NCBI RefSeq assembly: GCF_024223415.1
Contig: NZ_CP100500.1
From: Escherichia coli
GTDB lineage: Bacteria; Pseudomonadota; Gammaproteobacteria; Enterobacterales; Enterobacteriaceae
Length of the DNA: 64,000 nt
Direction: 5' to 3' (one strand)
Shown here: positions 12,356-32,502 of the stretch, piece after piece
How positions within the stretch are numbered: the stretch's first letter is position 1
Layout of the letters: each line of letters starts with the position of its first letter
The notes under the pieces: generated by a model
The model's input: only the letters and a program-made list of their open reading frames with translations
What the model was told of the DNA's origin: nothing
Database searches by the model: none
Made by a program: the position numbers and the translations under genes

Positions 12356-12501
12356 TCCTGCCGTCCCTGCCGGATCTCAGATAAGTTTTCCATGGTCATC
12401 TGCTGACCATTAAAGGTGACGGATTTTCCGTCCAGCACCGCCATTTCAGCTTCCATATAACGCTGAATCATGGCTTCGATATCATTCTGGTTCATAACCA
12501 T
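12283..12501 (-). CDS. Head-tail joining protein W-like
   Basis: 72 aa, ends ...RRRGHPGYRLARF; lambda gpW-like size, position after terminase large subunit. Confidence 0.6.
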   Translation of the reverse strand: MVMNQNDIEAMIQRYMEAEMAVLDGKSVTFNGQQMTMENLSEIRQGRQEWERRLAALITRRRGHPGYRLARF

Positions 12502-14594
12502 CCTCCGGAAGTCAGCCAGGGGTTAACATCGTCAGTTACTGTTTTCTTCCGTTTTTGTTTTTTAACAGGCGTGGATACCGGTTCCGGTGAGGATGACGGT
12601 TCGGTACTGTCCTGGACACACTCCAGCCAGGTTTCCCGGCTCGCCCACTCCGGTGCATCCGGCCAGCGGATCTTTTCGTATCCATGCAGAATGACCAGAG
12701 CCTCGGCATACACCATCAGGTCAAAAGCTTCGTTGGCACCGCGACCCGGCTTACTCCATTTCCCGTCACTGCTCCGCTCTTCATACGTCAGTTCGTCGTA
12801 AAACCAGCTCCCCAGCCAGTCAGGGAAATGCACATAGCCGGGACCTGGCGAGTCACGCCATAACGCGTTATTCACCCGGTCTTTCAGTGCATCCGTCTGA
12901 AGAAGCCAGAGCGGCACATCACCTGCGGCCTGCGCCCGTCGGCCCGTTCGTCCGGTGTTATCAGGGAATGTACGGGTGATCAGTTTTGCGCGCCGGATGC
13001 TGTCGCCCTTAAACAGGTAAATACGTTTACCAAGGCCATCACGACGGCAACGACGCCAGAATTTATAGGCATTATCAGTGACCCCGTCTTCACCGCCGGA
13101 GTCCACCGCCATTGCCATCAGTCGCATTTGTTGAGAAGGATCGGAGGCCAGCGGCCAGCTTTTATGAAAAACATCCGTCAGCAGGACATCCCAGTCTTCC
13201 GGATAGCTGGCCGGATCAATTCGCTGGCTCTCCCCGTCGCTGTCACCGCGCAATGACTGCGTGATGTTGTAACGATCAATAATCCAGCGTTCGCCACGGC
13301 TGCCATAGCCCGTTACCTGAACCACAAAACGGCGATGACGTCCCGCCTGCACATCCACTGTCGCCACAAGGAAATTAACGCCATCCGGCACACTGCGGGA
13401 AGGAACTGGCTCTGCCCGCTGCTCAAGCAGTTCACTTTTTCGTTGCTCCATGCTGGCGCGGGGAAGATAAGGTAATCCCCAGTCGGTATTGATAACCGTC
13501 TTGAGTGTTTCTTCACTTCCGGTTGTCTCGTATTCCTGTTCTGCAGTAAGCAGTTTGTAAACGAGTTGCGAGAGTGTCTGGTAAGCAGCTGCCGGACCCT
13601 CCATCCAGAATGACGCAATACGTGAGCGTCGGGGATCACCATAACGACTGCCATCCGCATTGATGGATTCACCATCCCGCAACCAGACCCCACGTCCGTT
13701 CAGCTCACGTTTGTGTTCAGGCATAATCCGTCCTGAACAGGAAGGACACTGAATATAAGCCGCCTCACTTGCCAGCACGGGATCGGCAATATCACGGAAA
13801 CCAGCAACCACATCGCCGCAGGGCTGAAAATACTCACCACAGTGTGGACAGGGCCAGTACCAGCGACGGCGATCACCACGGTTATAGAGCGACAGGATCC
13901 CCGTGGTTGGTGGAGCCTCATGCGGTGAAGTCCGTCGCCATTTCACATCCTTCACATCCCTGCCGGGGGAACTCTCCACCAACGTCATACCGCTGGACAT
14001 AAATGTGGTGGTACGTTTTGAGGCAAGAGAGAAGGCATCCCCCTCGCCATCAATATCTTCCGGAAAACGGTCATAATCCGTCAGCGCGACGCATTTATAA
14101 TCTGATGAGGACATGATATTGACTGACGGCCAGCCGATTTTCAGGTAGTTGCCAGCAAGGAATGTTCTGTCATAAACGTTGTTGTCATTTTTGTTCGGAC
14201 TCAGGCGACTGACCACTTCCGGGCTGACGCGAAACGTTCTGGCGAGTCGTTTTTTGGAGTGTTCGCGGGCTTTTTCCTCCGTCATCTGAATGATCAGCAT
14301 ATCAGCAGGATCGCAAATCACGTTGTAAATCACCCAGCCGTCAATCAGGCCGATAGTCTTGCCGGTTCGTGCCGGGCCAACAAATATCACTGCGTCGTAT
14401 TCACGCGAGGCCAGGCAGTTCATCGGCTCAATAACATACGGTGCCACCAGCGGATCCCACGGGACTGAGTTCCCGGCCCCCATGGGCACCCGCATATACT
14501 GAGCAACGGCATCAGCAACCCGCATTCGTCTCGGTGCGCGAAGGATATAACCTGAATCGGTTCGTGCTGCCTTTGCGGTTTCCTGATTCAGCAT
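12492..14594 (-). CDS. Terminase large subunit (lambda gpA family)
   Basis: 700 aa; N-terminal ATPase region with FVGPARTGKT Walker A; lambda A-like. Confidence 0.9.
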   Translation of the reverse strand: MLNQETAKAARTDSGYILRAPRRMRVADAVAQYMRVPMGAGNSVPWDPLVAPYVIEPMNCLASREYDAVIFVGPARTGKTIGLIDGWVIYNVICDPADMLIIQMTEEKAREHSKKRLARTFRVSPEVVSRLSPNKNDNNVYDRTFLAGNYLKIGWPSVNIMSSSDYKCVALTDYDRFPEDIDGEGDAFSLASKRTTTFMSSGMTLVESSPGRDVKDVKWRRTSPHEAPPTTGILSLYNRGDRRRWYWPCPHCGEYFQPCGDVVAGFRDIADPVLASEAAYIQCPSCSGRIMPEHKRELNGRGVWLRDGESINADGSRYGDPRRSRIASFWMEGPAAAYQTLSQLVYKLLTAEQEYETTGSEETLKTVINTDWGLPYLPRASMEQRKSELLEQRAEPVPSRSVPDGVNFLVATVDVQAGRHRRFVVQVTGYGSRGERWIIDRYNITQSLRGDSDGESQRIDPASYPEDWDVLLTDVFHKSWPLASDPSQQMRLMAMAVDSGGEDGVTDNAYKFWRRCRRDGLGKRIYLFKGDSIRRAKLITRTFPDNTGRTGRRAQAAGDVPLWLLQTDALKDRVNNALWRDSPGPGYVHFPDWLGSWFYDELTYEERSSDGKWSKPGRGANEAFDLMVYAEALVILHGYEKIRWPDAPEWASRETWLECVQDSTEPSSSPEPVSTPVKKQKRKKTVTDDVNPWLTSGGWL

Positions 14595-15088
14595 TACTCC
14601 TCCTGCTGTAATTCCTCCTCATCATCCGCACCTGCTTCAGTCACCCGCAGGGCTATCTGATCGCGCAGATCATCAATAATGGACTGAACACGGCTCACAG
14701 CGGCAGGCTGCAGACCGCAGTCACGTTCAAGAATATCCGGTAATGTCTCCAGCACCTGCACGACCGCTTTTGCCCAGATGGCAAACTCCCGTCTGACATC
14801 ACTGGCCGGAATGAGTTGTGCCGTTTCCTGTTCGAACTTAAGACGCTCACGTTCAGACTGATACCAGGCTTTGCGCTCATGCGCGTCCATTTCGCCTTCT
14901 GCAACCGGCGGTGGTAATGCCAGAAATGCCGACACAATATCAACCACCCGATAAAGCTTGAGGTTGCTTTCATGCCCCCCTGCAACGGGTAGATTTTGCA
15001 GCCTTGCCGCAGCAGTCTGGCGATGTACACCTGACAGTGCCGCCAGTTGACTGATATTAAGCGTCAGATTTTTTAACTCTCGATCCAT
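14594..15088 (-). CDS. Terminase small subunit (Nu1-like)
   Basis: 164 aa; N-terminal HTH LNISQLAALSGVHRQTAAARL; acidic C-terminus; precedes terminase large subunit. Confidence 0.75.
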   Translation of the reverse strand: MDRELKNLTLNISQLAALSGVHRQTAAARLQNLPVAGGHESNLKLYRVVDIVSAFLALPPPVAEGEMDAHERKAWYQSERERLKFEQETAQLIPASDVRREFAIWAKAVVQVLETLPDILERDCGLQPAAVSRVQSIIDDLRDQIALRVTEAGADDEEELQQEE

Positions 15089-15409: not shown

Positions 15410-15835
15410 GTGACAAGAGGATATTTCCTGATGGAGCAGGCAAATATTTTTCAAGAGATATTCGAACACGTTAGAAGTAATTTATACTTCCCATGGTTTT
15501 ACTCCGAATTAAAACGCCATAATATTGCGCATTATATTTATTATCTGGCTACTGATAATATAAGACTAATTACTCATGATGATAATGTTTTATTAGTTCG
15601 AGGCAGTAGAGGACTTGTGAAAGTTAGCACATCAAAAAAACCAGAGTTAATTAAAGAAGCAGCCAGGAATCTTATATCAGGTAAATCTACATTTCACCAA
15701 TATCGTCTCACTTTAGCAAAAGCAGGTGTTTATCGCTGGATTACAGATATAGATAAAAACATACGGTTTTACTATTCGTTTGATCACGATCTTTTGTACA
15801 TGGAAGATGTTGAAAATAACAGACCATTAATATAG
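15410..15835 (+). CDS. Hypothetical protein (AT-rich orphan cargo gene)
   Basis: 141 aa ORF on opposite strand to the late operon in an AT-rich island between Rz and terminase; Tyr/Asn/Ile-rich; no recognisable family. Confidence 0.4.
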   Translation: MTRGYFLMEQANIFQEIFEHVRSNLYFPWFYSELKRHNIAHYIYYLATDNIRLITHDDNVLLVRGSRGLVKVSTSKKPELIKEAARNLISGKSTFHQYRLTLAKAGVYRWITDIDKNIRFYYSFDHDLLYMEDVENNRPLI

Positions 15836-20774: not shown

Positions 20775-21299
20775 ATGAAGTTATGGCCTGTGTTGACTGG
20801 CATTGCACTCTCTTTCACTCTTATAGCATGTAAGGCCCCGACACCACCTAAAGGTGTGCAGCCGATTACAAATTTTGACGCCAACCGCTACCTCGGAAAA
20901 TGGTATGAAATAGCTCGCCTCGAGAACCGGTTCGAACGTGGTCTGGAACAGGTCAGCGCTACTTATGGAAAACGGAACGACGGAGGGATTCGTGTACTTA
21001 ACCGTGGATACGATCCAACGAAAAATAAATGGAGCGAGAGCGAAGGTAAAGCATACTTTACTGGAGATACTAAAACTGCAGCGTTGAAGGTTTCGTTTTT
21101 TGGCCCCTTCTATGGTGGCTATAATGTAATCAAACTGGATGATGAGTATAAGTATGCTCTTGTCAGTGGTCCGAACAGAGAATACCTATGGATTCTGGCA
21201 AGGACCCCAACTATTCCAGATAAAGTAAAAGCAGACTATGTGCGAACCGCTCAAAAGTTGGGATTCAATGTCAATGAATTATTATGGGTTAAACAATAA
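20775..21299 (+). CDS. blc: Outer-membrane lipocalin Blc homologue (lipoprotein)
   Basis: 174 aa; lipobox LIAC; GKWYEIARLENRFERGLEQVSATY and KVSFFGPFYGGYNVI closely resemble E. coli Blc as recalled. Confidence 0.85.
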   Translation: MKLWPVLTGIALSFTLIACKAPTPPKGVQPITNFDANRYLGKWYEIARLENRFERGLEQVSATYGKRNDGGIRVLNRGYDPTKNKWSESEGKAYFTGDTKTAALKVSFFGPFYGGYNVIKLDDEYKYALVSGPNREYLWILARTPTIPDKVKADYVRTAQKLGFNVNELLWVKQ

Positions 21300-26814: not shown

Positions 26815-27429
26815 TCATGCGTTAGTTTCTCCACAACCAGAAGCAATCGACGCCACGACGCCCGGAGCTGCACACTCGCGGGCGTCATTACTTTCTGAAA
26901 TGCAAAAGATTTTGTAGACCAGTGCTGCATGCTCCTGCAGCTTCGAAATTGAGAGATACAGCTCGTCGTTAATTGCTGTCTTCTCATGCGGTTCCACTAC
27001 ACCGTCTTCGATTGCTGAACGAATCTGTTTTGAATAACTGCCGATCTGTTCAATGACTTCCAGCAGACGCTGGTTAATATCGGCGTTGTCCACATCCTCG
27101 ACGTCAGGAAGAGACACAAAGACGCCATTTGCAGACTGCGCCACAGCGTCAGCAATGAAGTGAGTTCCACCAGCACGTTGCAAAATCATTGCCCATCCCA
27201 GCGGGAAAATCTGATCGCCATCGGCACGAAGGCGGTTAAATAATGCGTTCTCTGTTACATCCAGCCAGTCAGCTGCTTCAGCGTAACCACCCGGCAACTT
27301 TGCGATAGTTTTTCTGACAGCTTTCACGTACCACTCAGGCTGTTTTTCTACTTTCCAGTGATGCTTACCCACGGTTAGCCTCATCGTTCTGTGGTTTCTG
27401 TTAATCGATTTATCCATTAGATTTTTCAT
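26815..27429 (-). CDS. YdaT-like regulatory protein (CII-position gene), start uncertain
   Basis: ORF immediately downstream of Cro-like gene; Rac-type racR/ydaS/ydaT arrangement; candidate starts at 27429, 27417, 27384 (ORF extends to 27486). Confidence 0.45.
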
Positions 27430-27610
27430 AAAGCTCAGGTTTAAATGGCAACCGTCCGCAAGTTCTATATGCAGCTTCTGCTGCACGTCCTTTTGGAATT
27501 AACTGGCCCGGACGGTTTCGCCACTGATAAACGGCTTCAGTTGTTATGCCGAAAAAAGCAGCAACTTTCTCAATACTGCCGAAGTAGCTTTCGATATCGT
27601 CAGTTGTCAT
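27410..27610 (-). CDS. cro: Cro-like repressor (YdaS-type HTH)
   Basis: 66 aa HTH protein (FGITTEAVYQWRNRPGQ) divergent from cI across an operator region. Confidence 0.7.
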   Translation of the reverse strand: MTTDDIESYFGSIEKVAAFFGITTEAVYQWRNRPGQLIPKGRAAEAAYRTCGRLPFKPELYEKSNG

Positions 27611-27707: not shown

Positions 27708-28334
27708 ATGGAAACGGTTGGTCAGCGTATAAAAGCTCTGAGAAGAGTTACCAGAACGTCCCAGAAAGAATTGGGTAAATTTTGTGGAGTAAGCGACGTT
27801 GCTGTGGGGTACTGGGAGAAAGACATCAATACCCCTGGTGGGGAGGCACTTTCGAAATTAGCGAAGTTCTTCAATACGTCAATAGATTACATTCTTTATG
27901 GTGCTGAGTTTGAAGGCAAACTCGTCACAAACATGCGCAGAGTTCCTGTAATATCGTGGGTTCAGGCTGGGCAGTTTACTGAGTGCAGGGCAGCAGAAGT
28001 GTTTAGTGAAGTGGACAAGTGGGTAGATACATCATTAAAGGTTGGTGATAACTCATTTGCATTAGAGGTTAAAGGTGACTCCATGACTAACCCTAATGGC
28101 CTCCCAACAATACCAGAAGGCGCAACAGTGATTGTAGATCCAGATGCAGAACCTCGTCATGGAAAAATAGTCATCGCTCGACTTGATGGAACAAACGAAG
28201 CTACAGTAAAAAAATTAGTCATCGATGGCCCTCAAAAGTTTTTAGTGCCATTAAATCCTCGGTATCCCAACATCCCTATCAATGGTAATTGCCTTATCAT
28301 TGGTGTAGTCAAAGGAGTTCAATACGAACTCTAA
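27708..28334 (+). CDS. cI: CI-like prophage repressor (HTH_XRE + S24 peptidase)
   Basis: 208 aa; N-terminal HTH; C-terminal LexA-like autocleavage domain with GDSM and KKL catalytic motifs. Confidence 0.9.
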   Translation: METVGQRIKALRRVTRTSQKELGKFCGVSDVAVGYWEKDINTPGGEALSKLAKFFNTSIDYILYGAEFEGKLVTNMRRVPVISWVQAGQFTECRAAEVFSEVDKWVDTSLKVGDNSFALEVKGDSMTNPNGLPTIPEGATVIVDPDAEPRHGKIVIARLDGTNEATVKKLVIDGPQKFLVPLNPRYPNIPINGNCLIIGVVKGVQYEL

Positions 28335-28339
28335 GGCCT

Positions 28340-28415
28340 CTCTTCTCTAACTAAGGCACCGAACTAAGAAAAGTTTGGTGTTTTCTCTTGCCATAATAAC
28401 TAAGTTAAGTTAGAT
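28340..28415 (+). promoter_or_regulatory. OL/pL-like operator region downstream of cI
   Basis: Recurrence of ACTAAG operator-like half-sites (about 28350, 28363, 28400) as in the cro-cI intergenic region. Confidence 0.4.
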
Positions 28416-28499
28416 TTTATATCAAAGATAACGAACAGGCAGGACGCCCACGAAGTAGCCGCCTGGGGCATATAAAGTCCAGGATGATTCGTTAGCAAC

Positions 28500-28521
28500 A
28501 AAAAAGCGCCCTACAGGACGC
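28500..28521 (-). terminator. Intrinsic terminator of the antisense immunity-region gene
   Basis: Minus strand GCGTCC-TGTA-GGGCGC hairpin followed by TTTTTT, 44 nt downstream of the ORF stop. Confidence 0.5.
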
Positions 28522-28564
28522 TTAGCTCTTTAACAATCTGGGTATCATCCAACCAATGCAAGAT

Positions 28565-29086
28565 TTAAGGAATCCAAGGCGAATTCAGATCTCGCCCCAA
28601 CTCACGTAATGATCTTGGTCGTTCGTACATCGGATTTTTTTCCATAAGAAATTTATTTTCACAGTGAAGGCAACGGCTTGTAAGAAAATGAGAAGTTTTA
28701 CCTACTGGAAGCGGATGAAGTATCGATTTTATATTTTTGGAATAACAAAGTGGGCACAGATGCACAGTTATTTCTTTTCCACTCACAATTTCATTTTTAG
28801 AGTAAACAAAAGCACCAGAGTCAAGCTGATCAAGGACATATCCTTCTACCTTGGCACAAAAATCTTCAAACTCTGCAATTTTTGCTTTGAGATGCATCAC
28901 CTCTTCATCACGAAGGCGGATCGCATCGCCAAGAGAGAAGCATTCTGCCTGAAGCGTGATTAGTTTGTTCTGGAGTTCAATGGTTGCAGCTTTAACTTCT
29001 GCATCCGTTTTCGCGTCATTAATAACCTTAGCAAGACCGGCAGTCTCCTTTATAGCGGCCATAGCCGCAGACAGTTCAGCTATCAC
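28565..29086 (-). CDS. Hypothetical coiled-coil / zinc-ribbon protein (antisense cargo gene in immunity region)
   Basis: 173 aa; Ala/Lys/Glu-rich helical N-terminus; C-terminal CPLCYS...CLHCENKF two-CxxC motif; AT-rich; own terminator. Confidence 0.55.
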   Translation of the reverse strand: MIAELSAAMAAIKETAGLAKVINDAKTDAEVKAATIELQNKLITLQAECFSLGDAIRLRDEEVMHLKAKIAEFEDFCAKVEGYVLDQLDSGAFVYSKNEIVSGKEITVHLCPLCYSKNIKSILHPLPVGKTSHFLTSRCLHCENKFLMEKNPMYERPRSLRELGRDLNSPWIP

Positions 29087-29089
29087 GTT

Positions 29090-29555
29090 GAATACTCAGC
29101 TAGTTGTTGGGGATATCCAGATTAACCAAATCCTTGTTGTTGGGGAATAACTAGGTCCACCTCGCCTGATGTGGCTAAAAGCAGGCACATAACAGCTAAG
29201 TATTTTCAACCAGAGAGAATCCTTAGCGTTGTGGTGAATGCGGCTCAGCGCACGCGGGTTAAGGTTGAGGCTGACAGTCGACCTTCTGTGGATACCCACC
29301 CGCCTGGTGTGCAACCTTCGCCAGGCACCGGGAGGCACCCGGCACCACAACTTTATGCTGTGTGTAGTCCTGGCGGTACCAGCTTGTACCCTTGCTTCCG
29401 GCTGGTACCGTCCTTTTTACAAAACAGAGAAGAGCATCACCGGACGACGGGCTCATAACCCAATCCATCCGGGCGGCAGTCACCGCAGGTGTTCTTCTCT
29501 GTTTTGTGGAGAAACTAACCGACCTTGCAGGGTCGATATGATGAGGAGCAGCAAA
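29090..29555 (+). other. GC-rich structured leader with multiple long inverted repeats (candidate antitermination/ncRNA element)
   Basis: Inverted repeats CGGTACCAGC/GCTGGTACCG (10 bp), CAAAACAGAGAAGA/TCTTCTCTGTTTTG (about 14 bp), CACCGGG/CCCGGCACC, and duplicated TTGTTGTTGGGGA; no convincing ORF. Confidence 0.3.
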
Positions 29556-29918
29556 ATGGCTAGCGAACGCAGTACTGATGTGCAGGCATTTATCGGGGAG
29601 CTGGACGGCGGCGTATTTGAAACCAAAATCGGCGCAGTTCTCAGTGAAGTCGCTTCCGGTGTGATGAACACGAAAACCAAAGGTAAGGTCTCGCTCAACC
29701 TAGAAATCGAACCGTTTGATGAGAACCGAGTGAAAATCAAACACAAACTCTCATATGTTCGCCCGACTAACCGCGGGAAAATTTCCGAAGAAGACACCAC
29801 CGAAACGCCGATGTATGTCAATCGCGGTGGTCGCCTGACTATTCTGCAGGAAGACCAGGGACAATTACTGACTCTTGCCGGTGAGCCTGACGGAAAACTC
29901 CGCGCAGCAGGTCGTTAA
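29556..29918 (+). CDS. YfdP-like early-left protein
   Basis: 120 aa from MASERSTDVQAF... with AGGAG RBS 7 nt upstream; directly precedes YfdQ/YfdR-like genes. Confidence 0.5.
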   Translation: MASERSTDVQAFIGELDGGVFETKIGAVLSEVASGVMNTKTKGKVSLNLEIEPFDENRVKIKHKLSYVRPTNRGKISEEDTTETPMYVNRGGRLTILQEDQGQLLTLAGEPDGKLRAAGR

Positions 29919-29983
29919 TATCGTTCTTAATAAACTGATTATTTATCTCATCACTGAATATCTTTATATAGTGAGGACTTATT

Positions 29984-30808
29984 ATGTCTCAGAACTTAGA
30001 CGCAACCGCAATTAATCAAATCCATGCCCTTATTTCTGCTCAGGGTGTTAATGAAATTATCAGTAAGATTGGTGCCGATGCTGTGGCATTGCCTGAGAAT
30101 TTCCGCATTCATGATCTGGAAAAACTTAATTTAAATCGCTTCCGTTTCCGTGGTGCGCTTTCCACTGCCAGCATCGATGACTTTACCCGTTATTCTAAAG
30201 ATCTTGCAGATGAAGGCACCCGCTGCTTTATCGATGCCGATAATATGCGAGCCGTCAGTGTGCTTAACCTGGGTACTATTGATGAACCAGGTCACGCAGA
30301 TAACACCGCCACTCTCAAACTGAAAAAGACAGCACCGTTCTCTGCCCTGTTGTCTGTTAACGGCGAGCGTAACTCCCAGAAGTCACTGGCAGAATGGATT
30401 GAAGACTGGGCCGACTACCTTGTGGGCTTTGATGCTAATGGTGACGCCATTCAGGCAACCAAAGCGGCTGCGGCGATCCGTAAAATCACAATTGAAGCGA
30501 ACCAGACCGCTGATTTTGAAGATAATGACTTCAGCGGCAAACGCTCCCTGATGGAGTCTGTCGAAGCGAAGACCAAAGACATTATGCCAGTGGCATTTGA
30601 ATTTAAATGCGTTCCGTTTGAAGGTCTGAAAGAACGTCCGTTTAAATTACGCCTCAGCATTATCACTGGCGATCGTCCTGTACTGGTACTACGCATTATT
30701 CAGCTGGAAGCAGTGCAGGAGGAAATGGCTAACGAATTTCGTGATCTGCTTGTTGAGAAGTTCAAAGACAGCAAAGTAGAAACCTTTATTGGTACTTTCA
30801 CCGCCTGA
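29984..30808 (+). CDS. YfdQ-like protein (DUF2303)
   Basis: 274 aa; size and order match the CPS-53 yfdQ/yfdR arrangement as recalled. Confidence 0.6.
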
Positions 30809-30936
30809 TTTCATTACTGCAAATGCCCCTGCGGGGGCATTTATGGAAACGTAATTGACTCAATATTCGCCTGATGGCGAGGTTTTTCTTTAACCAAATT
30901 TCAGCGCGGTGCAGCGCATATAACGTGGAGAACAAA

Positions 30937-31473
30937 ATGTCATTTATTAAAACTTTTTCCGGGAAGCATTTTTATTATGACAGGATAAATAAAGACAACA
31001 TCGATATTAACGATATCGCGGTTTCCCTTTCAAATATCTGTCGCTTTGCAGGACATCTTTCACACTTCTACAGCGTCGCCCAACATGCGGTGCTTTGCAG
31101 CCAGCTGGTACCGCAGGAATTTGCTTTTGAAGCGTTAATGCATGATGCAACAGAAGCTTATTGTCAGGACATCCCCGCGCCACTGAAACGCCTTCTTCCT
31201 GACTATAAACGGATGGAAGAAAAAATAGACGCCGTAATCCGTGAGAAATACGGGTTACCCCCGGTTATGAGCACGCCTGTGAAATATGCCGATCTCATCA
31301 TGCTGGCAACCGAACGCCGCGATCTCGGGCTTGATGATGGCTCTTTCTGGCCTGTACTGGAAGGCATCCCGGCAACAGAGATGTTCAACGTGATTCCACT
31401 GGCACCGGGCCATGCCTACGGGATGTTTATGGAACGTTTTAACGAGTTATCGGAGTTACGCAAATGCGCATGA
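30937..31473 (+). CDS. YfdR-like HD-domain phosphohydrolase
   Basis: From MSFIKTFSGKHFYY...; HD-type His/Asp residues (…FAGHLSHFYSVAQHAV…MHDATEAY…). Confidence 0.65.
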   Translation: MSFIKTFSGKHFYYDRINKDNIDINDIAVSLSNICRFAGHLSHFYSVAQHAVLCSQLVPQEFAFEALMHDATEAYCQDIPAPLKRLLPDYKRMEEKIDAVIREKYGLPPVMSTPVKYADLIMLATERRDLGLDDGSFWPVLEGIPATEMFNVIPLAPGHAYGMFMERFNELSELRKCA

Positions 31474-32131: not shown

Positions 32132-32502
32132 TGGAGCCATACAGCCTCACACTCGATGAGGCCTGTCAGTTTCTTAAGATATCCAGACCAACCGCCACCA
32201 ACTGGATACGAACAGGCCGCCTACAGGCAACACGTAAAGATCCAACCAAGCCAAAATCTCCTTACCTCACAACACGGCAAGCCTGCATTGCGGCGCTTCA
32301 GTCTCCGCTGCATACTGTCCAGGTGAGCGCGGGTGATGGCATAACAGAGGAAAGAAAATGTCACTCTTCCGCAGAAATGAAATATGGTATGCCTCGTATT
32401 CGCTCCCGGGCGGGAAACGAATTAAGGAATCTCTTGGCACAAAGGACAAGCGGCAAGCTCAGGAGTTGCACGACAAGCGAAAAGCAGAACTCTGGCGAGT
32501 AG
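32131..32502 (+). CDS. xis: Excisionase (AlpA/Xis-type HTH), unusually extended C-terminus
   Basis: From [35 protein letters not shown]; frame stays open to 32502, overlapping int start by about 145 nt. Confidence 0.5.

What the first reader, a model, noticed from the sequence alone, without database searches (positions are those of the whole stretch)
28565..29086. Antisense coiled-coil/zinc-ribbon gene in the rexAB-equivalent slot between cI and the early-left genes
A 173-aa ORF sits on the opposite strand to cI and the early-left genes, in an AT-rich patch bounded by OL-like ACTAAG operator repeats on one side and a GC-rich structured leader on the other, with its own intrinsic terminator (28500-28521). 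The protein has a helical Ala/Lys/Glu-rich N-terminus and a C-terminal two-CxxC zinc ribbon, and I cannot assign it to a known family. This immunity-region position is where lambdoid prophages carry lysogen-expressed exclusion or abortive-infection genes such as rexAB and sieB.
Basis: partly seen in the sequence, partly recalled or inferred. Interest (0 to 1): 0.65.

Follow-up and report, generated by a model that had tools for sequence, protein, structure and literature searches.

The report
Prophage Rip1-family anti-phage defence gene
The unassigned 173-residue gene next to the prophage repressor is real, and it is a distant relative of Rip1, a recently solved prophage defence protein that caps the small-terminase ring of an invading phage, so it is a new member of a known kind rather than a new system.

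Summary
The ORF at 28565-29086 (-) is a real gene. It has its own intrinsic terminator and lies antisense just downstream of the PL/OL region of a CPS-53/KplE1-like lambdoid prophage of E. coli. Its product can be assigned to a family. Sequence search hits PDB 9oox, "ring interacting pore 1 (Rip1)" of phage HK446 bound to the T6 small terminase (phmmer E 1.8e-9; clade profile E 4.5e-20; full length; 25% identity). The AlphaFold model (pLDDT 91.9) also hits 9oox (Foldseek E 4e-7, probability 1.0), with nothing else below E 0.28. The window protein, HK446 Rip1 and DMS3 gp25 all fall in phrog_1244, and the four zinc-ribbon cysteines are (near-)invariant. HK446 rip1 and HK620 hkaP also sit antisense inside the PL operon; the Pseudomonas homologues sit antisense between terS and terL. 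Two details do not hold: a family does exist, and the slot is downstream of OL/PL, so it is not the rexAB slot. Against phage PhiR49_1 the flanks are 95-100% identical but the coding sequence only about 60%. No phenotype, trigger or expression could be tested here.

The parts
28565..29086 (-). Coding sequence of a Rip1-family protein, 173 aa with a GTG start. It has an N-terminal Ala-rich helix (2-24), a long helix (28-79), and a beta-rich four-cysteine zinc-ribbon domain (84-150) with C111, C114, C139 and C142. The C-terminal tail (152-173) is variable.
28504..28523 (-). Intrinsic terminator of the gene: AAGCGUCC-UGUA-GGGCGCUU followed by UUUUUGUUG. It is 95-100% conserved in PhiR49_1 although the coding sequence is diverged.
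29087..29160 (-). Upstream region that presumably holds the gene's own promoter. Only weak sigma-70-like matches were found (TGGATA-16-GAGTAT, 29119-29092, 7 of 12). Two 14-nt direct repeats (TCCCCAACAAC core on this strand) lie 33 nt apart. The region is about 86-98% identical to PhiR49_1. The promoter has not been shown.
28363..28416 (+). OL operators (28363-28377 and 28399-28413) overlapping the predicted early-left promoter PL (-35 at 28388-28393, -10 at 28411-28416). PL points into the antisense strand of the Rip1-like gene. The segment specific to this phage's immunity type (unrelated sequence in PhiR49_1) ends near 28430.

Best explanation
**What it is.** A single-gene, prophage-encoded anti-phage defence of the Rip1 ('ring interacting pore 1') family.

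**Shown here.**
- The protein is a full-length homologue of phage HK446 Rip1 in both sequence and fold.
- It keeps the four zinc-ribbon cysteines.
- It forms a stand-alone cassette with its own terminator.
- It is nested antisense in the early-left (PL) transcription unit of a CPS-53-like prophage. Other family members show the same kind of nesting.

**Inferred from what is reported for Rip1.**
1. In the lysogen PL is repressed and the protein is made from its own promoter as an inert soluble protein.
2. A superinfecting phage reaches its late phase and makes a ring-shaped small terminase (TerS).
3. About twelve protomers dock on the ring through the variable C-terminal zinc-ribbon domain.
4. 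The clustered N-terminal helices form a membrane pore, which kills or depolarises the cell before progeny are released (abortive infection).

**My own further inferences.**
- When the resident prophage is induced, convergent transcription from PL runs through the gene and turns it down. This would spare the prophage's own packaging.
- The fast-evolving C-terminal domain sets which terminases are recognised.
For: **Sequence.**
- phmmer against PDB gives 9oox_L 'ring interacting pore 1 (Rip1)' at E 1.8e-9, residues 5-151 against 15-160 of 164.
- A profile of 39 close homologues that excludes HK446 gives E 4.5e-20.
- Pairwise BLASTP gives 25% identity and E 2e-13.
- The 9oox sequence is HK446 gp37.

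**Family.** The window protein, HK446 Rip1 and DMS3 gp25 all match phrog_1244 end to end, at E 2.7e-52, 2.2e-53 and 3.5e-61.

**Fold.** The AlphaFold2 model has pLDDT 91.9. The top Foldseek PDB hits are 9oox_L and 9oox_M at E 4.2e-7 and 7.1e-7, probability 1.00, target-normalised TM-score 0.74. The next hit has E 0.28.

**Conserved residues.** Across 101 diverse members C111, C114 and C139 are invariant and C142 is present in at least 90%.

**Reported function of Rip1.**
- It is a prophage-encoded block to incoming phage. [quoted passage not shown]
- It senses the small terminase subunit (bioRxiv 10.64898/2026.04.30.721860).
- The PDB title states a complex with the T6 small terminase.

**Context.** The gene is antisense to its neighbours in 10 of 11 independent contexts:
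- HK446;
- HK620 and HK630;
- vB_EcoM-689R2;
- DMS3 and LPB1, between terS and terL;
- Rac-like and other prophages;
- L019 is mixed.

**Promoter and operators.** PL/OL lie at 28363-28416, and the immunity-specific segment ends near 28430.

**Allele pattern.**
- Against PhiR49_1 the coding sequence is 50-70% identical within flanks that are 95-100% identical.
- Within the enterobacterial clade residues 1-95 average 69% pairwise identity and residues 96-151 average 43%.
Against: - Identity to the characterised protein is only 25%, so trigger and outcome could differ.
- No strong sigma-70 promoter and only a weak Shine-Dalgarno sequence (GAG) precede the GTG start. Expression in the lysogen is therefore assumed, not shown.
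- There is no classical transmembrane segment. The highest Kyte-Doolittle 19-residue mean is 1.06, at the N-terminus. Pore formation would have to depend on oligomerisation.
- I could not read the primary Rip1 paper. It is not in the searchable library. The mechanism therefore rests on a PDB title, a meeting report and one citing sentence.
- PADLOC, Pfam and NCBIfam give nothing. HK446 Rip1 also gives nothing in PADLOC, so that negative result is uninformative.
Confidence: 0.7

Rival explanations
1. The protein is a Rip1-family member with a different trigger or a different output. It might sense another ring-shaped phage oligomer, such as a portal or a different TerS class. Or it might block packaging or exclude superinfection without forming a pore.
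For: - Identity to HK446 Rip1 is only 25%.
- The zinc-ribbon domain and the tail are the fastest-evolving parts of the protein.
- HK620 hkaP was annotated only as a 'putative superinfection exclusion protein'.
Against: - Fold, length, cysteines and N-terminal helix character are conserved end to end.
- The family is homogeneous in size across 808 clusters.
Confidence: 0.17
2. The main role is regulatory. The antisense transcript, or the zinc-ribbon protein itself, would modulate early-left (PL) expression or the lysis-lysogeny decision of the resident prophage rather than defend against other phages.
For: - The gene is convergent with PL and lies inside its transcript.
- Zinc ribbons often bind nucleic acids. 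Weak hits to zinc-ribbon regulators were seen: CdsZ at E 0.11 and McsA at E 0.24.
Against: - Homologues occupy unrelated positions, for example between terS and terL in Mu-like Pseudomonas phages. A cis-regulatory role at PL cannot apply there.
- The protein sequence is under purifying selection, with dN/dS about 0.25.
- The only significant structural match is Rip1.
Confidence: 0.08
3. It is a chance or decaying ORF with no function.
For: - The start codon is GTG.
- The ribosome-binding site is weak and no strong promoter was found.
Against: - The reading frame is intact and at least 99% identical in 52 complete E. coli genomes.
- The family is large and conserved.
- Synonymous changes exceed non-synonymous ones.
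- The structure model is confident.
Confidence: 0.02

Closest known systems
Rip1 (ring interacting pore 1), gp37 of Escherichia phage HK446; PDB 9oox, in complex with the phage T6 small terminase
   Same: - Both fall in phrog_1244.
- Homology is full length and the predicted fold matches (N-terminal helices plus a four-cysteine zinc-ribbon beta domain).
- The sizes are similar (173 against 164 aa).
- Both are single genes in a temperate-phage genome, antisense inside the PL operon.
   Different: - Identity is only 25%.
- This gene lies directly after PL in a CPS-53-like prophage that shows no N gene, whereas HK446 rip1 lies after N.
- This protein has a 22-residue C-terminal extension and lacks about 10 N-terminal residues.
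- Its trigger and phenotype are untested.
HkaP of phages HK620, HK630 and HK629 ('putative superinfection exclusion protein')
   Same: It belongs to the same family (tblastn with Rip1). It is antisense in the PL operon and has its own terminator annotation nearby.
   Different: It lies further into the operon, between hkaQ and cIII. To my knowledge its function was never tested (my own knowledge, not checked here).
gp25 of Pseudomonas Mu-like phages (DMS3, JBD30, D3112, MP38, LPB1)
   Same: It matches phrog_1244 at E 3.5e-61 and is 30% identical to the window protein. It is antisense to both neighbours.
   Different: It sits between the small and large terminase genes in the late region, not in the immunity region. 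The host genus is different.
Lambda RexAB and lambda/P22 SieB
   Same: All are prophage-encoded abortive-infection or exclusion functions placed near the immunity region. RexB is thought to act by membrane depolarisation (established knowledge).
   Different: - There is no sequence relationship; the only PHROG hit is 1244.
- RexAB is a two-gene system co-transcribed with cI, upstream of OL/PL, and includes a multi-pass membrane protein.
- This is a single gene on the opposite strand, downstream of PL, with no predicted transmembrane segment.
TerI and Avs1-3 (other terminase-sensing defences)
   Same: All use a conserved DNA-packaging protein as the infection signal. TerI and Rip1 are both reported to sense the small subunit.
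   Different: The proteins and effectors are unrelated. Avs proteins are large STAND NTPases that sense the large subunit.

Membership tests
Rip1 family (HK446 gp37 / phrog_1244) | Full-length sequence homology to HK446 Rip1 | tested here: met
   phmmer gives E 1.8e-9 over residues 5-151 against 15-160. The clade profile without HK446 gives E 4.5e-20. BLASTP gives 25% identity and E 2e-13. Both proteins match the same PHROG end to end.
Rip1 family (HK446 gp37 / phrog_1244) | Same fold as the solved Rip1 chain | tested here: met
   The AlphaFold2 model has pLDDT 91.9. Foldseek against PDB puts 9oox_L and 9oox_M first, at E 4e-7 to 7e-7, probability 1.00 and target-normalised TM-score 0.53-0.74. 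No other hit has E below 0.28.
Rip1 family (HK446 gp37 / phrog_1244) | Two CxxC pairs of the C-terminal zinc ribbon | tested here: met
   C111, C114 and C139 are invariant and C142 is present in at least 90% of 101 diverse members. All four align with the Rip1 cysteines. Zinc binding itself was not tested.
Rip1 family (HK446 gp37 / phrog_1244) | Single-gene cassette carried by a temperate phage or prophage | tested here: met
   The gene has its own terminator and no partner ORF, and it lies between cI/PL and yfdP of a CPS-53-like prophage. The antisense arrangement matches HK446, HK620 and DMS3.
Rip1 family (HK446 gp37 / phrog_1244) | Assembly of about 12 protomers on a small-terminase ring | not testable with these tools
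   Known for HK446 Rip1 with T6 TerS only from the PDB title and a meeting report. No multimer prediction or binding assay is available here.
Rip1 family (HK446 gp37 / phrog_1244) | Membrane pore formation or abortive infection, and protection against phage | not testable with these tools
   There is no classical transmembrane helix; the highest Kyte-Doolittle 19-residue mean is 1.06, at the N-terminus. The phenotype needs experiments.
Lambda RexAB | Two genes co-transcribed with cI between cI and OL/PL, one of them a multi-pass membrane protein | tested here: not met
   This is a single gene on the strand opposite to cI. It lies downstream of OL/PL, has no hydrophobic transmembrane segment and shows no homology to RexAB.
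SieB (lambda/P22) | Homology to SieB, and sense orientation within the PL operon | tested here: not met
   The only significant PHROG match is 1244. The gene is antisense to PL.

The most novel reading that the evidence does not exclude
Antisense nesting may be a conserved self-protection switch of the Rip1 family. The gene sits inside an operon that fires only in the lytic cycle: PL in lambdoid phages, the terS-terL late operon in Mu-like phages. The resident prophage could then silence its own terminase-triggered suicide protein by convergent transcription when it is induced. The sharply bounded, fast-evolving coding-sequence alleles would retune which foreign terminase rings are recognised. 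I could not check whether the primary Rip1 paper already shows this.
Probability: 0.3. Interest if true: 0.5.

Novelty: new member of a known kind. Interest (0 to 1): 0.33.

Why it matters
- It gives a concrete, testable function to a gene that RefSeq calls 'hypothetical protein'. That allele is present in 52 of 5,426 complete E. coli genomes. About 370 genomes match at least 80% of the wider cI-end-to-yfdP stretch. Some of these may carry other alleles, but this was not checked.
- It extends the Rip1 family to CPS-53/KplE1-type prophages at 25% identity to the solved protein.
- It shows that current defence-finder libraries of 2023 miss the whole family.
- The conserved antisense placement and the allele swap exactly at the coding-sequence boundaries suggest how such a terminase-triggered suicide protein is kept from harming its own phage, and how its specificity diversifies.

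Tried and rejected
**Domain and family libraries.** Pfam-A, NCBIfam and PADLOC v2.0.0 gave only noise: DUF641 at E 0.005, PduO at 0.03, a type IV DinG at 0.02. The PADLOC negative carries no weight because HK446 Rip1 itself also has no PADLOC hit.

**Literature.**
- Searches for 'ring interacting pore', Rip1 plus terminase, and HK446 never found the primary Rip1 paper. Only a meeting report and one citing preprint turned up.
- The search for hkaP returned unrelated papers.
- A paper on Pseudomonas Mu-like phage genome architecture did not discuss gp25.

**Promoter.** The strict promoter scan found no sigma-70 promoter for the gene. A lenient scan found only 7-of-12 matches.

**Rejected readings.**
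- The rexAB-slot reading is rejected because OL/PL lies between cI and the gene.
- The 99-aa and 64-aa plus-strand ORFs that overlap the gene (28664-28963, 28956-29150) are treated as shadows of the minus-strand gene.

**Fold control.** The terminator stretch as a whole is not unusually stable (z -0.17). Only the hairpin-plus-U-run pattern supports it as a terminator.

Full report
**Observation**

RefSeq annotates the identical interval in E. coli XD35 as hypothetical protein WP_000559913.1.

The surroundings are those of a CPS-53/KplE1-like lambdoid prophage:
- cro-like gene at 27410-27610 (-);
- LexA-family cI at 27708-28334 (+);
- yfdP, yfdQ and yfdR at 29556-31473 (+);
- integrase starting at 32358 (+);
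- replication, lysis and head genes further left on the minus strand.

ACTAAGNNNNSTTAG with at most one mismatch occurs in the whole 64 kb only between cro and cI (27622, 27671) and just after the cI stop (28363, 28399). That is 5 matches against 0.73 expected, and no shuffle reached 5. The second pair overlaps a plus-strand promoter-like site, TTGCCA-17-TAGATT, at 28388-28416.

The minus-strand terminator at 28523-28504 is a textbook hairpin plus U-run, about 40 nt after the stop codon. The ORF is AT-rich (GC 0.35-0.48). The leader at 29200-29500 is GC-rich (0.575-0.59) and very structured, with z -7.35.

**It is a real gene**

- phrog_1244 matches residues 5-156 at E 2.7e-52.
- An exhaustive HMMER search finds 808 cluster representatives at E<=1e-3. 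Almost all are 145-180 aa and match end to end.
- Phage PhiR49_1 carries a 58%-identical allele in the same slot. Comparison gives dN 0.38 and dS 1.51. Codons 2-8 differ mainly by synonymous changes, which fixes the GTG at 29086 as the start.
- This exact allele, at least 99% identical, is present in 52 of 5,426 complete E. coli genomes and is always called 'hypothetical protein'.

**What it is**

Pfam, NCBIfam and PADLOC give nothing significant. A sequence search of the PDB does give a hit: chain 9oox_L, 'ring interacting pore 1 (Rip1)', at E 1.8e-9, aligned over residues 5-151 against 15-160 of 164 and including both CxxC pairs.

A profile built only from the window protein's close enterobacterial relatives, without the solved protein, improves this to E 4.5e-20. 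The 9oox sequence is gp37 of Escherichia phage HK446. The window protein, HK446 gp37 and Pseudomonas phage DMS3 gp25 all match phrog_1244 end to end with similar scores.

Structure prediction agrees independently. The AlphaFold2 model, built from a 101-sequence alignment, has mean pLDDT 91.9. It shows helices at 2-24 and 28-79 and a beta-rich domain at 84-150. Foldseek against the PDB puts 9oox_L and 9oox_M first, with the title 'Cryo-EM structure of the Escherichia phage HK446 Rip1 in complex with the Enterobacteria phage T6 small terminase'. The values are E 4e-7 to 7e-7, probability 1.00 and target-normalised TM-score up to 0.74. Every other hit has E of at least 0.28.

Across the diverse alignment C111, C114 and C139 are invariant. 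C142, Y83, G91, Y95 and L123 are present in at least 90%.

**What is known about Rip1**

I could not find the primary paper in the searchable library. Three sources are available:
- the PDB entry title;
- a meeting report. [quoted passage not shown] - a preprint that lists Rip1 among the defences that sense the small terminase subunit (10.64898/2026.04.30.721860).

The mechanism I assign to the window gene is therefore an inference from 25% full-length homology to a protein whose mechanism I know only in outline.

**Position and regulation**

The gene is not in the rexAB slot. Alignment with PhiR49_1 shows that the immunity-specific, unrelated segment runs from the cro side to about 28430, just past the predicted PL -10 hexamer. 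From 28431 the two phages are 95-100% identical, except for the coding sequence of this gene. Together with the operator scan, this places OL/PL at 28363-28416, between cI and the gene.

The gene therefore lies inside the early-left transcription unit, convergent with PL. Its terminator keeps its transcript from running into OL and cI.

The solved Rip1 has the same arrangement: HK446 gp37 is antisense between N and ral/cIII. So do these homologues:
- HK620/HK630 hkaP, annotated in HK620 as a 'putative superinfection exclusion protein';
- the homologue in vB_EcoM-689R2;
- homologues in Rac-like and other prophages.

In Pseudomonas Mu-like phages the homologue is antisense between the small and large terminase genes. 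In 10 of 11 independent contexts with visible neighbours the gene opposes the flanking operon; L019 is mixed.

I infer, without proof, that this nesting lets lytic-cycle transcription of the resident phage silence the gene.

I found no convincing promoter for the gene. The strict scan found none on the minus strand upstream. The lenient scan gives only TGGATA-16-GAGTAT, which ends 5 nt before the GTG. Expression in lysogens remains an assumption.

**Allele pattern**

Against PhiR49_1 the divergence begins at the start codon and ends a few bases past the stop codon. Identity is 50-70% with no gaps over most of the gene (28631-29080). The terminator and the sequence upstream of the start are nearly identical.

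Within the enterobacterial clade residues 1-95 average 69% pairwise identity. Residues 96-151, the zinc-ribbon domain, average 43% and carry indels between the two CxxC pairs. This fits a conserved assembly or effector half and a variable recognition half, but that reading is inference.

The protein has no classical transmembrane segment. Its most hydrophobic stretch is the Ala-rich N-terminus, with a highest Kyte-Doolittle 19-residue mean of 1.06.

**Verdict**

The defence interpretation is supported by homology. The claims of an unassignable family and of rexAB-slot equivalence are not supported.

This is a new, divergent member of a known and recently characterised kind. Family membership is near certain. 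The specific mechanism (TerS-ring sensing leading to a pore and abortive infection) is likely but untested for this protein.

The resident prophage's own small terminase (14594-15088, phrog_141) is an obvious candidate to test for self-triggering.

Noticed in passing
window 29198-29507 (+): The GC-rich leader between the Rip1-like gene and yfdP matches Rfam STnc100 (RF02076) over the whole model. The score is 42.4 bits, just under the gathering score of 47, with E 6e-8. The match ends in a terminator-like hairpin (29374-29410) plus a U run. A hairpin with 25-nt arms follows (29419-29443 / 29483-29507). The stretch 29190-29560 folds with z -7.35. RefSeq calls this region a frameshifted pseudogene. 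No N-like gene is visible between PL and yfdP, so it may be an sRNA or an RNA-based antitermination or attenuation element in the PL leader.
   Followed up: partly
window 29100-29113 and 29133-29146: Two 14-nt direct repeats, CTAGTTGTTGGGGA and CTTGTTGTTGGGGA, lie 33 nt apart immediately upstream of the Rip1-like start codon. They are conserved in PhiR49_1. They could be a regulator binding site or a promoter element.
   Followed up: no
window 28545-29095 compared with L002 (PhiR49_1): Divergence of about 40% at the nucleotide level is confined to the coding sequence, within flanks that are 95-100% identical. This suggests that alleles are swapped by recombination in the conserved promoter and terminator flanks.
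   Followed up: partly
window 15410-15835 (+) and 20775-21299 (+): Two further plus-strand ORFs are nested in the minus-strand late/lysis part of the prophage. They match phrog_413 ('head protein') and phrog_2809 (unknown function). Neither has a PADLOC hit. They may be additional independently expressed accessory genes.
   Followed up: partly
L009 2118-3722 (E. coli XD35, next to the related prophage): A gene annotated as 'TIR domain-containing anti-phage reverse transcriptase' lies beside a DinI-like gene at the far end of the related prophage in strain XD35. I did not check whether it is present in the window.
   Followed up: no
window 14594-15088 (-): The resident prophage's own small terminase (phrog_141, E 7e-74) lies next to the large terminase at 12492-14594. 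It is relevant as a possible self-trigger of the Rip1-like protein.
   Followed up: no
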